IMG/VR virus record: IMGVR_UViG_2562617113_000019
Length of the DNA stretch: 43,127 nucleotides
Direction: 5' to 3' (one strand)
DNA from: a virus
Lineage: Duplodnaviria > Heunggongvirae > Uroviricota > Caudoviricetes
Shown: piece after piece, positions 18,001-21,000 of the stretch
Position numbering within the stretch: the stretch's first letter is position 1
How the letters are laid out: every line of letters begins with the position of its first letter
Position numbers: made by a program

Positions 18001-21000
18001 TTAGCAGAATATCATTCCCAATGATCGGATTAAACCCAATCAATGTCTCAATGAATCTATCATAATTCGTTGTAATAACTGAGCCTATATTTCGACTTGC
18101 TTTTGCAAATAACTCCATTTCTGTTGCATACTTATCACCATCATTTATTTGATGTAGGTCTACAAGTTCTGATATAAATATTTTCATGCGACTGGCAGAG
18201 TAGTTTCCTGAAGCTGCATACTCGTAGTATTTGTCATTTATTCTTTTAAACTTACCGTTCCTATCAGCTTCTAATAATCTATTGAACTCTGTTTCAATTT
18301 CGCTAGCTACCTTTGGTAGATCAATTTCACCTAAAGAATTAGCGTTCCTGCCTGCGGCGTCAAAATAAAAGTCATGACTCCCTTTCATTTCGTAAACAAT
18401 CTTTTTTAGAAGTTCTGACCATGAGTAAGTGCCTACCAGATATCTCCGGCTAAACCCTGCACCAACAAACACTACTGGATGGTTTACGTAAGACTCCATG
18501 AATTTACTAAGATTCATTTATCCTTCTCCATAACAGGAATATTTATAGCTGATAAAGCATACAGCATCTTCGACGAAGATGCCTTCAATTTTGTTCACTC
18601 ATCATCCTATTCTACCTGTTTCATCACACAACAAGTCCAGAACAGCATTATGTATGCCATTGGGAGGGCATATGTATTAAATTAAGTTACGGTCGCAATG
18701 TCTTACATTCATCAAAAGTGAGGTAATATATATAATTTAGCAAAACTAACATTGTCACCACTGCCAGTTAGGGTGATGGGAATAAACAAGGCCTACAGGG
18801 ACTCTCAGCAACTGAACCCTCAGGTCGTTGATAATAATCCTCTCAGTTGATTATTTTCCCTCAGATCACTGAGAAATACAGGCTATTTCCGCTTTTCGCT
18901 CAAAGCGGACTAAAATGTTGGCTTGTGTCTGACTTAGCGCATTTTAGGAAGTGCTGGTGGTGACGGTTTGTTGTGTTGCACAGAAAAAATAGAATAAGTA
19001 CACCAAATAGTTTTATTGAGTCACCAGTGAGACATCCACATATTTATCAGCATATGCGAGTGTCAAATGCAGGAGGTTAACGTGCTGGTTGCGAAATGTG
19101 CACTGGCTATTGCGTTTGTGATGGCAATCTATGGTCTTGCTATTGTTCTTATGGATCACCTTTCTGATTGATTTCATATTGGCGAGGTAACGGGAGTTAA
19201 GTAGAATAGCTGCGGGTGCTTGAGGCTGTCTGCCTCGGGCATGAACACCAAAGGCAGATAGAGAAAAGCCCCAGTTAACATTACGCGTCCGGCAAGACGC
19301 TTAACATTAATCTGAGGCCACATCTATGCTTTGCATACGTAGATTAGCCTCTTACCGACCAAAAGGTCAAGGAGAAGCAGGCTATGAAGCAGCAAAAGGC
19401 GATGTTAATCGCCCTGATCGTCATCTGTTTAACCGTCGTTGTGACGGCACTGGTAACGAGGAAAGACCTCTGCGAGGTACGAATCCGAACCGGCCAGACG
19501 GAGGTCGCTGTCTTCACAGCTTACGAACCTGAGGAGTAAGAGACCCGGCGGGGGAGAAATCCCCCGCCACCTCTGATGTGTCAGGCATCCTCAACGCACC
19601 CGTACTTACCCGCTTCGGCGGGTTTTTTGTTGTGGTGGAGAAATTAGCTTTTTGTGTACTCTTTTAGCAGTAAGTCTTGAGGGACTGATTGTTGTAAATA
19701 GAATCGTGTTTGCTTAGTTAGCGCGCAGGGAGAAGAGGGATGGACCCTTCAGGGGAACGCTATTAATCTGGAAAATTCTATTTATGGACTTCAAGAAGTT
19801 GCGCAAAATTATTAATAAAGATGGCCTCTATGCAGTGCGCGTTGAAAATGGGGAAATTATTAGTTGTTACTGCATTCATTGCTCACGGGCTTTGCAACAG
19901 CCTAGTGGGGCTATGTTAATATATCTCTTGAATGGGCATGTGACGGACGGATTTATGTTGCGTGAAGATGAATTTGTCACATCATTACGGACATTAAAAG
20001 AAATTGGATTAAAAGCTGGCTTTTCTGCTTTTGAAGACGATTGAACTCATCTATAATTCAGCGCAGGGTTGACCCCCTGCTGAGTAACACCGTGCCACCG
20101 GAGAAAGCCGATGGCACATATACAACTGATCAAACATACCTCTTCTGGATTACTGCTCCCGGCAACATCGGAGAGTTGCGAATTCTTGCATCAAATAAAA
20201 ATAGGTGAGTGGATACACGCTGATTTTAAGCGCGTTCGTAACTACGCATTTCACAAGCGTTTTTTCAAACTCCTGCAACTCGGATTCGATTACTGGACTC
20301 CTGTCGGTGGGGCGATCACCTCTCGTGAACGAAAACTTGTGTCCGGTTTCGTTGATTATCTGTGTGACTCGGTCGGTCGGGAACATACGCCAGCCCTGAG
20401 TGATGCCGCAGAACAATATCTGAATACCATTGCGATACGCAGAACCTGCGATACGGCATTGCTAAAGTCATTTGATGCTTTCCGTGAATGGGTAACTATT
20501 GAGGCCGGATTTTACACCGAGCATTTTTATCCGGACGGTAGCCGTGGACGCAGGGCAAGATCTATCGCGTTTGCAAATATGGACGATACCGAGTTTCAGC
20601 AGGTTTATAAATCCGTACTGAATGTGCTTTGGAACTGGATCCTGTTCCGTAAATTTTCCTCACCGGAACAAGTCGAAAATGTTGCTGCGCAGCTGCTGGA
20701 GTTTGCGTAATGGTGGATTTGCGTAAAGCTGCTAAAGGCCATATGTGTACAGTCAGAATCCCCGGTTACTGCAATCACAATCCTGAAACATCTGTGCTGG
20801 CGCACTACAGGCTAGCGGGGACGTGTGGAATGGCGATAAAACCACACGATATGCAGGCAGCGATTGCCTGTAACTCATGTCACGATCTAATCGATGGGCG
20901 GGTAAAAACCAGCGATTACACCAAAGAAGAATTGCACCTGATGCATGCAGAAGGTGTTTTTCGCACGCAAGAAATCTGGAGAAATGAGGGATATTTATGA

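What the first reader, a model, noticed from the sequence alone, without database searches (positions are those of the whole stretch)
19082..19630. Hok-family type I toxin locus with a mok-like frame, structured 3' end and an upstream hydrophobic mini-ORF
The hok toxin (19384-19539) is overlapped by a mok-like frame (19326-19532) and followed by a perfect 8-bp stem (19547-19568) and an intrinsic terminator. About 210 nt upstream, a 29-aa single-TM peptide ORF with a perfect AGGAGG site may be a second small toxin-like gene. An antisense Sok-like RNA would be expected on the minus strand around the mok start (roughly 19290-19360) but cannot be confirmed by eye.
Basis: partly seen in the sequence, partly recalled or inferred. 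Interest (0 to 1): 0.4.

Follow-up and report, generated by a model that had tools for sequence, protein, structure and literature searches.

The report
Prophage hokD/sok toxin locus plus mini-gene
This is an ordinary, complete copy of the well-known hok/mok/sok toxin-antitoxin module in an E. coli prophage, and just upstream lies a separate, conserved but uncharacterised 29-residue membrane-peptide gene with no known function.

Summary
Window 19179-19629 is a complete hokD-type hok/mok/sok type I toxin-antitoxin locus in a lambdoid prophage of E. coli NADC1036. It has a promoter, a 416-nt mRNA whose 5' end pairs with a 3' element, mok, Hok (Pfam 1e-23), a 3' stem and a terminator. The Rfam leader model scores 105 bits.

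The antisense Sok gene can be placed more exactly. Its promoter is at 19370-19341 on the minus strand and the RNA runs from about 19335 to 19262. Its -10 lies at the position mutated experimentally in sokW. All of this is already known biology, and PGAP calls the gene hokD.

The mini-ORF (GTG 19082-19171) is probably a real gene. It is intact in 106 of 123 related copies, with pN/pS 0.34 and one in-frame indel. It keeps a conserved Shine-Dalgarno site and a conserved promoter-like pair of hexamers (TTGAnn, 17 nt, CATATT).

The mini-ORF is a separate module. Most hok loci lack it, and it survives without hok on Shigella pINV and on a Shigella chromosome. No antitoxin RNA and no family match were found, so "second toxin" is unsupported.

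A side result is that the Sok 5' tail / mok start is a sharp diversity hotspot. Overall interest is low to moderate.

The parts
19016..19044 (+). Candidate sigma-70 promoter of the mini-ORF: -35 TTGAGT (19016-19021), 17-nt spacer, -10 CATATT (19039-19044). Inferred start near 19051.
   Evidence: Pattern located. Both hexamers and the 17-nt spacing are kept in 33 of 36 distinct upstream sequences, while the spacer has 12 different sequences. The single-sequence scan did not flag it (8 of 12 matches). Function is inferred.
19071..19076 (+). Shine-Dalgarno AGGAGG of the mini-ORF, 5 nt before the GTG.
   Evidence: Sequence. GGAGG is kept in nearly all relatives.
19082..19171 (+). Mini-ORF of 29 codons, (M)LVAKCALAIAFVMAIYGLAIVLMDHLSD. 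It is one hydrophobic helix with Lys5 on the N side and an acidic DHLSD tail.
   Evidence: Of 123 related copies, 103 are intact, 3 carry an in-frame 3-nt deletion and 17 are truncated at 4 junctions. pN/pS is 0.34 in frame against 0.56 and 0.94 in the other frames, and variable sites by codon position are 15/6/16. Some genomes annotate it as a 29-aa hypothetical or 'membrane protein'.
19179..19207 (+). hok promoter: TTGGCG, 17 nt, TAGAAT.
   Evidence: Promoter scan, 9 of 12 matches. It lies 7 nt upstream of position 1 of the Rfam leader model.
19214..19629 (+). Full-length hok mRNA, about 416 nt.
   Evidence: The Rfam model starts at 19214 and the terminator is at 19608-19629. MFE is -176.1 kcal/mol, z = -8.96.
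19214..19225 (+). 5' element GGGUGCUUGAGG, the counterpart of the R1 'tac' element. It pairs with the 3' fbi element.
   Evidence: Paired with 19589-19601 in both the MFE and the centroid structure. The pairs are kept in 67-75 of 76 related sequences, mostly invariant or G-U.
19262..19335 (-). Predicted Sok antisense RNA of about 74 nt: a roughly 16-nt 5' tail, a long hairpin, then CUUUUCU. It is complementary to the mok Shine-Dalgarno site (GAGG 19313-19316) and the mok AUG (19326).
   Evidence: Fold -29.6 kcal/mol, z = -4.8. The sokW Northern probe YO-592 corresponds to window 19303-19332. The ends are inferred.
19341..19370 (-). Sok promoter: -35 TTGACC (19370-19365), 18-nt spacer, -10 TAATCT (19346-19341).
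   Evidence: The -10 is at the position of the sokW -10 (TAACCT) that Takada et al. 2021 mutated to abolish sokW (primers YO-421/422). It is conserved in relatives.
19326..19532 (+). mok reading frame, 68 codons, out of frame with hok.
   Evidence: PHROG 37205 matches at 1.6e-21. In most relatives the same ATG is 57 nt before the hok ATG, so it is in frame.
19384..19539 (+). hok (hokD-type) toxin gene, 51 aa. Its Shine-Dalgarno site is AAGGAG at 19369-19374.
   Evidence: Pfam PF01848 1.2e-23. PHROG 251 6.9e-33. PGAP calls it hokD. It differs by one residue (I19V) from the HokD of BL21.
19522..19525 (+). UACG at the Tyr47 codon, a candidate TadA A-to-I editing site (Tyr to Cys).
   Evidence: Sequence. 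Editing of hokC/D/E at this position is reported in the preprint 10.1101/2025.08.07.668861. Not tested here.
19547..19568 (+). 8-bp G+C-rich stem-loop in the hok 3' untranslated region.
   Evidence: There is a compensatory G-C to A-U change at pair 19551/19564 among relatives (6 GC, 45 AU, 20 GU).
19589..19601 (+). fbi-like element CCUCAACGCACCC, complementary to the mRNA 5' end.
19608..19629 (+). Intrinsic terminator of the hok mRNA.

Best explanation
Two adjacent but separable units lie in the accessory region between the replication genes and the late-gene antiterminator of a lambdoid prophage inserted next to ttcA.

Unit 1 (19179-19629) is a complete hokD-type hok/mok/sok type I toxin-antitoxin module. 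It should work as the plasmid R1 paradigm does.
- A weak promoter makes a stable 416-nt mRNA. That mRNA is kept inert because its 5' end pairs with an element just before the terminator.
- Slow 3' trimming frees the 5' end. The mRNA then becomes both translatable and open to Sok.
- Ribosomes starting at mok (19326) read through the hok ribosome-binding site and allow Hok synthesis. Hok is a 51-aa inner-membrane toxin.
- Sok is an unstable antisense RNA of about 74 nt, made from a promoter inside the mok-hok leader. It covers the mok ribosome-binding site and AUG, so it blocks mok and hence hok.
- When Sok supply stops (loss of the element, or prophage induction as shown for hokW), Hok is made.

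Unit 2 (about 19016-19171) is an independent small gene. A conserved promoter-like element, a strong ribosome-binding site and a GTG start encode a 29-residue single-helix peptide. It is predicted to sit in the inner membrane, N terminus in and acidic C terminus out. It is most likely expressed from the prophage as a small accessory ('moron') membrane protein of unknown role.

No terminator separates unit 2 from hok, so its transcript probably runs on into the hok mRNA.

Shown here: the sequence features, the family matches, the fold, the conservation and coding signature, and the fact that the two units occur apart. Inferred: all expression, RNA ends, toxicity, membrane topology and read-through.
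For: hok unit:
- Pfam HOK_GEF 1.2e-23. Rfam RF01794 105 bits over the leader 19214-19389.
- PGAP annotates hokD in the identical genome record.
- Promoter and terminator found by the scans.
- The MFE shows the 5'-3' closure, z = -9.
- Sok promoter, hairpin and U tract are present. They are homologous to the experimentally defined sokW -10 and probe region (PMC8621323).
- HokD and HokW are toxic in published assays.

Mini-ORF:
- The ORF is kept in 106 of 123 copies, including one in-frame indel.
- pN/pS is 0.34 against 0.56 and 0.94 in the other frames, and the second codon position is the least variable.
- The promoter hexamers and spacing are kept over 12 different spacer sequences, also where the sequence further upstream is unrelated.
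- A diverged (59% aa) but intact copy with an ATG start lies on Shigella pINV, where hok is deleted.
- An intact copy lies on a Shigella flexneri chromosome with no hok downstream.
- hokW and P1-type hok loci share homology only from about 19187-19202 onward.
Against: - No expression data exist for this locus.
- The Sok -10 (TAATCT) matches the consensus at only 3 of 6 positions with an 18-nt spacer, and the promoter scan did not flag it.
- The mini-ORF promoter pattern alone is not significant.
- The mini-ORF is cut at four different recombination junctions in 17 of 123 relatives, so it is dispensable for the prophage and for hok.
- The pN/pS value comes from non-independent pairs of only 22 alleles over 28 codons.
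- Chromosomal hok loci of K-12 are reported to be inactive for post-segregational killing, so activity here is not guaranteed.
Confidence: 0.82

Rival explanations
1. The mini-ORF is a second membrane toxin (type I-like). It would be held in check by an RNA antitoxin or by mRNA structure.
For: It is a short, very hydrophobic, single-helix peptide next to another type I toxin, inside a prophage accessory region. A consensus fold of the alleles pairs the Shine-Dalgarno site with CCUUUC near the 3' end of the ORF. That could be a translation-blocking structure.
Against: - No promoter-like or terminator-like site on the opposite strand in 18800-19800.
- No known antitoxin RNA family apart from sok in 18500-19750, even at E up to 5.
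- No match to Hok or any toxin family.
- The Shine-Dalgarno pairing has no covariation, because both sides are invariant, and the consensus energy is weak.
- The peptide ends in an acidic tail.
- The gene is intact on pINV and on a Shigella chromosome with no obvious partner.
Confidence: 0.15
2. The mini-ORF is not a functional protein gene. Under this view the conserved element is an upstream second promoter and leader for hok, or just hitch-hiking sequence, and the open frame is incidental.
For: No terminator lies between the ORF and hok, so transcripts should read into hok. The most conserved part is the 3' end of the ORF next to the hok promoter. The ORF is truncated in 17 of 123 relatives without loss of hok. 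There is no family match and only close relatives exist among 1.84 billion proteins.
Against: - The frame-specific substitution pattern.
- An in-frame 3-nt deletion in one lineage.
- The start codon and Shine-Dalgarno site are kept even in the 59%-identical pINV copy, where hok is gone.
- The gene persists without hok on a Shigella chromosome.
Confidence: 0.15
3. The hok locus is an inactive relic, like the K-12 chromosomal hok loci. It would be carried passively by the prophage.
For: Published work found chromosomal hokA/B/C loci unable to mediate post-segregational killing. The Sok -10 is weak.
Against: - Every element is intact: promoter, leader structure, mok, hok, the 5'-3' closure and the terminator.
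- There is no IS element or stop codon.
- Hok differs by one conservative residue from a HokD reported as toxic.
- The hokW-sokW locus, 92% identical at the DNA level, is experimentally functional.
Confidence: 0.1

Closest known systems
hokD (relF) of E. coli, as annotated by PGAP in BL21(DE3) and many E. coli prophages
   Same: The Hok peptide is identical except for I19V. The promoter, leader, 3' stem and terminator are the same. It occupies the same place in a lambdoid prophage, upstream of rem and the antiterminator gene.
   Different: Here mok starts 58 nt before hok and is out of frame, as in R1. In most hokD relatives the distance is 57 nt, which gives an in-frame 70-aa 'MokW-like' extension. 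The 1-nt difference lies in the Sok -35 (TTGACC with 18 nt here, against TTGCCT with 17 nt). The Sok 5' tail is a rare allele. From my own knowledge, the K-12 copy is truncated upstream by relBE. This copy is complete.
hokW-sokW of the Stx2 prophage Sp5 (Takada et al. 2021, PMC8621323)
   Same: About 92% DNA identity over window 19194-19602. The Sok -10 and the probe region are at the same positions. [quoted passage not shown]
   Different: It sits elsewhere in the phage genome and has no mini-ORF upstream; homology starts inside the hok promoter. The Hok C terminus and the Sok tail allele differ.
hok/mok/sok of plasmid R1 (the paradigm)
   Same: The architecture is the same. mok overlaps hok out of frame. 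Sok is antisense over the mok start. The mRNA 5' end pairs with its 3' end. There is a stem-loop and a terminator in the 3' region. The Rfam leader model matches over its full length.
   Different: The sequence is distant: HokW, which is close to this Hok, is 44% identical to R1 Hok. This locus is in a prophage, not a plasmid. Post-segregational killing was not tested.
Small prophage-encoded inner-membrane 'moron' peptides and type I toxin peptides (for the mini-ORF); this comparison is from general knowledge, not from a test
   Same: It is very short, has a single hydrophobic helix, and appears to have its own promoter inside a prophage accessory region.
   Different: No sequence relationship to any described family was found. 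No antitoxin RNA was detected. It is restricted to Escherichia and Shigella.

Membership tests
hok/mok/sok type I toxin-antitoxin family | Hok/Gef peptide of about 50 aa with an N-terminal membrane helix and a conserved C-terminal part | tested here: met
   Pfam PF01848 1.2e-23, 82.9 bits against a cut-off of 22. PHROG 251 6.9e-33.
hok/mok/sok type I toxin-antitoxin family | Conserved structured hok mRNA leader that holds the Sok target | tested here: met
   Rfam RF01794 gives 105.2 bits (gathering score 59) over model positions 1-157 at 19214-19389 on the + strand. The model is in the hok-sense orientation and ends at the hok AUG.
hok/mok/sok type I toxin-antitoxin family | mok reading frame that starts in the Sok target and overlaps hok | tested here: met
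   ATG 19326 to TGA 19532, 68 codons, with GAGG 9 nt upstream. The start codon is conserved in relatives although the frame relative to hok differs.
hok/mok/sok type I toxin-antitoxin family | Antisense Sok gene (promoter, hairpin, U tract) opposite the mok start | tested here: met
   TTGACC, 18 nt, TAATCT at 19370-19341. Hairpin plus CUUUUCU, z = -4.8. Positionally homologous to the mutated sokW -10 and to the sokW probe. This holds at the sequence level only; the transcript was not observed.
hok/mok/sok type I toxin-antitoxin family | Long-range pairing of the mRNA 5' end with a 3' element (tac-fbi), plus a 3' stem-loop and terminator | tested here: met
   19214-19225 pairs with 19589-19601 in the MFE and centroid structures. 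The 3' stem shows a compensatory change. The terminator is present.
hok/mok/sok type I toxin-antitoxin family | Hok kills the cell when Sok is removed; Sok rescues | not testable with these tools
   This is shown only for relatives: hokW-sokW and HokD.
Type I toxin (as a reading of the mini-ORF) | Small hydrophobic membrane peptide | tested here: met
   29 aa. Residues 6-24 are almost entirely hydrophobic.
Type I toxin (as a reading of the mini-ORF) | A dedicated antisense or divergent small RNA antitoxin | tested here: inconclusive
   No promoter-like or terminator-like site on the minus strand. No Rfam antitoxin family near the ORF at E up to 5. A new RNA cannot be excluded by these scans.
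Type I toxin (as a reading of the mini-ORF) | Toxic when over-produced | not testable with these tools
Hok/Gef family (as a reading of the mini-ORF as a degenerate Hok paralogue) | Match to the HOK_GEF profile | tested here: not met
   No Pfam, NCBIfam or PHROG hit at E up to 1 beyond noise.
IsrK small RNA (Rfam RF01394), for the hok 3' untranslated region | Score at or above the Rfam gathering threshold | tested here: not met
   33.2 bits against 50. The similarity is mainly two hairpins.

The most novel reading that the evidence does not exclude
The 29-aa gene may be a so far unrecognised working partner of prophage hokD loci rather than a mere neighbour. Its conserved promoter could supply a 5'-extended transcript that runs into hok and changes how the hok mRNA folds or how it responds to Sok. 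Alternatively, the peptide could act in the membrane together with, or against, Hok during prophage induction. Separately, the sharp diversity peak in the Sok 5' tail may reflect selection for mutually non-interfering Sok/hok specificity classes among co-resident prophages.
Probability: 0.12. Interest if true: 0.55.

Novelty: new member of a known kind. Interest (0 to 1): 0.28.

Why it matters
The hok/sok part adds nothing new in kind. It is one more intact prophage copy of a textbook module that automatic annotation already names.

Two smaller points could be useful.

First, a 29-codon gene shows signs of purifying selection and has a conserved promoter-like element. DNA similar to it is found in about half of complete E. 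coli genomes: 2643 of 5426 have a match, and 1892 cover most of the unit. It is also found on the Shigella virulence plasmid. It is unannotated in this genome and uncharacterised everywhere, so it is a concrete candidate for small-protein studies.

Second, alleles of the same hokD locus are nearly identical except for about 25 nt at the Sok 5' tail / mok start. This gives a simple, testable model for how many hok/sok copies might coexist in one cell without cross-silencing.

Tried and rejected
- Pfam, NCBIfam and PHROG scans of the mini-ORF and of the mok product gave no named family.
- phmmer of the 34-aa extended translation against 1.84 billion representatives returned only 5 close relatives at 76-79% identity, so there is no wider family.
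- A full-text search for peptide substrings found no paper.
- A genome-collection scan with a degenerate mini-ORF pattern found only Escherichia and Shigella, plus three short MAG contigs assigned to Collinsella, Candidatus Scatousia and Haemophilus that carry the same Escherichia-type sequence.
- ATG 19067 as the start (34 aa) is rejected. That ATG overlaps the Shine-Dalgarno site and is ATA in most relatives.
- A candidate upstream promoter with TAGAAT at 18990 is rejected, because it is not conserved.
- An antisense RNA for the mini-ORF: no signals were found.
- Sequestration of the mini-ORF Shine-Dalgarno site by the 3' end of the ORF was seen in a consensus fold, but it has no covariation and weak energy.
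- Covariation support for the 5'-3' closure of the hok mRNA is not informative. The relatives are too similar and the pairs are mostly invariant or G-U.
- IsrK similarity of the hok 3' region is below threshold, and the IsrK paper does not mention hok.
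Full report
**Where the window comes from.** The 751 bases around the finding are 100% identical to the chromosome of E. coli NADC1036. The annotated record shows a lambdoid prophage inserted next to ttcA. Its order is:
- integrase, RalR/RalA, RecE/RecT and KilR;
- repressor and Cro-like genes, then replication genes;
- a block of accessory genes;
- hokD, a rem-like gene and an antiterminator region;
- toxin, lysis and structural genes.

PGAP annotates only hokD (window 19384-19539) inside the finding.

**Check of the observation.**
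- hok at 19384-19539 (51 aa);
- an overlapping 68-codon frame at 19326-19532, whose ATG lies 58 nt before the hok ATG and is therefore out of frame;
- a perfect 8-bp stem at 19547-19554 / 19561-19568;
- a terminator at 19608-19623 followed by a T run;
- a 29-codon ORF from GTG 19082 to TGA 19171, preceded by AGGAGG at 19071-19076.

**The hok module.** The peptide matches Pfam HOK_GEF (1.2e-23) and PHROG 251, 'MokW-like host killing'. It differs by one conservative residue (I19V) from the HokD of BL21.

Rfam's 'sok' model (RF01794) matches 19214-19389 on the plus strand with 105 bits, against a gathering score of 59. The alignment ends at the hok AUG. The model therefore describes the hok mRNA leader that contains the Sok target, not the antisense RNA itself.

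A promoter (TTGGCG, 17 nt, TAGAAT; 19179-19207) ends 7 nt before model position 1. That sets the mRNA start at 19214.

Folding 19214-19629 gives -176 kcal/mol, z = -9 against shuffles. In both the minimum-energy and the centroid structure the first 12 nt (GGGUGCUUGAGG) pair with CCUCAACGCACCC at 19589-19601. From established knowledge, this is the 5'-3' closure that keeps full-length R1 hok mRNA inert.

Among 76 distinct related sequences, the 8-bp stem in the 3' region shows a compensatory G-C to A-U change at 19551/19564. The closure pairs are mostly invariant, so they are uninformative.

**Sok.** On the minus strand, TTGACC (19370-19365), 18 nt, TAATCT (19346-19341) is followed by a short tail. 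A long hairpin and CUUUUCU come next, ending near 19262. The 74-nt RNA folds at -29.6 kcal/mol, z = -4.8.

The simple promoter scan did not flag this site, because the -10 matches at only 3 of 6 positions. The position is nevertheless anchored by experiment. In the hokW-sokW locus of prophage Sp5, which is 92% identical over window 19194-19602, two oligonucleotides help:
- the primers used to kill the sokW promoter replace exactly the homologous hexamer (TAACCT);
- the sokW Northern probe corresponds to window 19303-19332 (PMC8621323).

The predicted RNA covers the mok Shine-Dalgarno site (GAGG 19313-19316) and the mok AUG (19326). The refined placement is a promoter at 19370-19341 and an RNA from about 19335 to 19262.

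**Mechanism of the hok module.** The anatomy matches the R1 paradigm point by point. hokW-sokW is experimentally a type I toxin-antitoxin pair in which Sok disappears and Hok is made after prophage induction. HokD is toxic in a recent survey, which also finds hok enriched in prophages. I therefore take the R1 mechanism as the working model. All steps of expression are inferred.

**A difference from most relatives.** A pattern spanning the mini-ORF end and the hok promoter retrieved 120 IMG/VR loci. In most of them the mok ATG lies 57 nt before hok, so it is in frame and gives the 70-aa product annotated as MokW. The window allele and about a tenth of the others have 58 nt, which gives the classical out-of-frame overlap.

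The extra base lies in the Sok -35. It reads TTGACC with an 18-nt spacer here and TTGCCT with 17 nt in the majority. The start site and passage of ribosomes across the hok ribosome-binding site are conserved, but the Mok peptide is not. This fits the known role of mok in translational coupling.

**A diversity hotspot.** Nucleotide diversity among 68 related alleles is at most 0.07 in almost every 10-nt bin across the mRNA (0.12 at 19544-19553). It rises to 0.18, 0.36 and 0.16 in the three bins from 19314 to 19343. That stretch is the Sok 5' tail and the mok start.

At least eight distinct tail alleles exist on otherwise nearly identical backgrounds, and all keep the mok ATG. Genomes carry a median of two and up to ten hok-like places. 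Selection for non-cross-reacting Sok/hok pairs is therefore an attractive but untested explanation.

**The mini-ORF.** The ORF alone means little: there are 24 ORFs of at least 20 aa in 1.3 kb. The evidence comes from comparison.
- Of 123 usable related copies, 103 keep the 29-codon frame and 3 keep it with an in-frame 3-nt deletion and an ATG start. The other 17 are cut at four different recombination junctions.
- Over 22 nucleotide alleles, pN/pS is 0.34 in the ORF frame, against 0.56 and 0.94 in the other two frames. Variable sites fall 15/6/16 on codon positions 1/2/3, as expected for a hydrophobic helix.
- Upstream, GGAGG is conserved. So is a pair of hexamers: TTGAnn, exactly 17 nt, then CATATT (window 19016-19044). 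These are kept in 33 of 36 distinct upstream sequences, while the spacer has 12 different sequences. They are also kept in lineages whose sequence further upstream is unrelated.
- In one sequence this pattern is not significant: 22 of 100 shuffles contain it. The argument is the conservation footprint.

The peptide, (M)LVAKCALAIAFVMAIYGLAIVLMDHLSD, has Lys5 on the N side of a hydrophobic stretch of about 19 residues and an acidic tail. By the positive-inside rule (general knowledge) this predicts N-in, C-out.

**Is the mini-ORF part of the hok system?** The two units are separable in both directions.
- hok without the mini-ORF: hokW-type and P1-type hok loci share homology with the window only from about 19187-19202 onward, which is inside the hok promoter. 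Only four phage records carry the mini-ORF.
- The mini-ORF without hok: an intact copy, 59% identical and with an ATG start and AGGAGG, lies on the Shigella and EIEC virulence plasmid about 290 nt upstream of icsP. It is followed by the hok promoter and only about 60 nt of decayed leader. Another intact copy, with its promoter, lies on a Shigella flexneri chromosome where homology ends about 25 nt after the stop.

No terminator lies between the mini-ORF and hok. Read-through into hok is therefore likely where both are present. This is the only hint of a functional link.

**Is the mini-ORF a toxin?** I found no support beyond its hydrophobicity.
- No promoter-like or terminator-like site lies on the opposite strand.
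- No known antitoxin RNA family lies nearby.
- It matches no Pfam, NCBIfam or PHROG family.
- Only five close relatives exist among 1.84 billion representative proteins.
- A genome-collection scan found it only in Escherichia and Shigella, apart from three short MAG contigs that carry the same sequence.

Public databases call it hypothetical or 'membrane protein', for example in REL606. No paper in the searchable library contains its sequence. I therefore describe it as an uncharacterised small membrane-protein gene of prophages, function unknown.

**Surroundings.** The mini-ORF/hokD/rem block forms the right border of a variable cargo slot. Here the slot holds:
- PD-T4-7 (13092-14117);
- AbiH (14529-15506);
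- an unknown 290-aa gene (15747-16619);
- a SIR2-like PDC-S25 gene on the opposite strand (17009-18517).

Relatives carry other genes in the same place.

**Verdict.** The hok/mok/sok interpretation is correct and already known. The mini-ORF is probably a real but separate gene, and calling it a toxin is not supported. Interest is low to moderate. It rests on the unstudied small gene and on the Sok-tail diversity hotspot.

Noticed in passing
window 19314-19343 (both strands): There is a sharp diversity hotspot among otherwise nearly identical hokD alleles. Pi is 0.18-0.36 here against 0.07 or less in almost every other 10-nt bin of the mRNA. It lies exactly at the Sok 5' tail / mok start, with at least 8 distinct tail alleles. 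These may be specificity classes that avoid cross-talk between co-resident hok/sok copies.
   Followed up: partly
window 19326-19384, compared with loci L007-L126: In most related loci the mok ATG is in frame with hok (57 nt apart, giving a 70-aa 'MokW'). In this window it is out of frame (58 nt). The 1-nt indel also changes the Sok -35 and its spacer.
   Followed up: partly
window 13092-18517: A defence-gene island lies directly upstream of the mini-ORF: PD-T4-7 (13092-14117), AbiH (14529-15506), an unknown 290-aa ORF (15747-16619) and a SIR2-like PDC-S25 gene on the minus strand (17009-18517). Relatives hold different cargo in the same slot.
   Followed up: partly
L005 2400-2900 (Shigella flexneri pWR100, upstream of icsP): The region about 250-400 nt upstream of the icsP start codon on the virulence plasmid is a relic of this prophage module. 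It holds an intact mini-ORF with its promoter and Shine-Dalgarno site, then the hok promoter and about 60 nt of decayed hok leader. The relic promoters point towards icsP.
   Followed up: partly
window 19548-19628 (+): The hok 3' untranslated region gives a sub-threshold Rfam match to the Salmonella Gifsy-1 small RNA IsrK (33 bits against 50; E = 7e-6 in a 201-nt search). The IsrK paper does not mention hok. This may be only two similar hairpins.
   Followed up: partly
window 19522-19525 (+): The Tyr47 codon of hok lies in a UACG motif flanked by CAG/CUG. This is the TadA A-to-I editing context reported for hokC/D/E, which recodes Tyr to Cys.
   Followed up: no
window 1557-1735 (+): The RalA antitoxin RNA (Rfam RF02694, 197 bits) lies next to ralR. 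It is a second type I toxin-antitoxin system in the same prophage.
   Followed up: no
window about 21900-25900 (L001 22979-26968): The prophage carries several toxin-like cargo genes near the lysis cassette: a scabin-related ADP-ribosyltransferase, a subtilase-family AB5 B subunit, and an enterotoxin A/B pair, as named by PGAP.
   Followed up: no
L006 2201-2610 (E. coli BL21(DE3)): In BL21/REL606 the mini-ORF has lost its own promoter. It overlaps the 3' end of a DUF977 gene but keeps AGGAG, the GTG start and the full frame. There it could be expressed only as part of the early operon.
   Followed up: no
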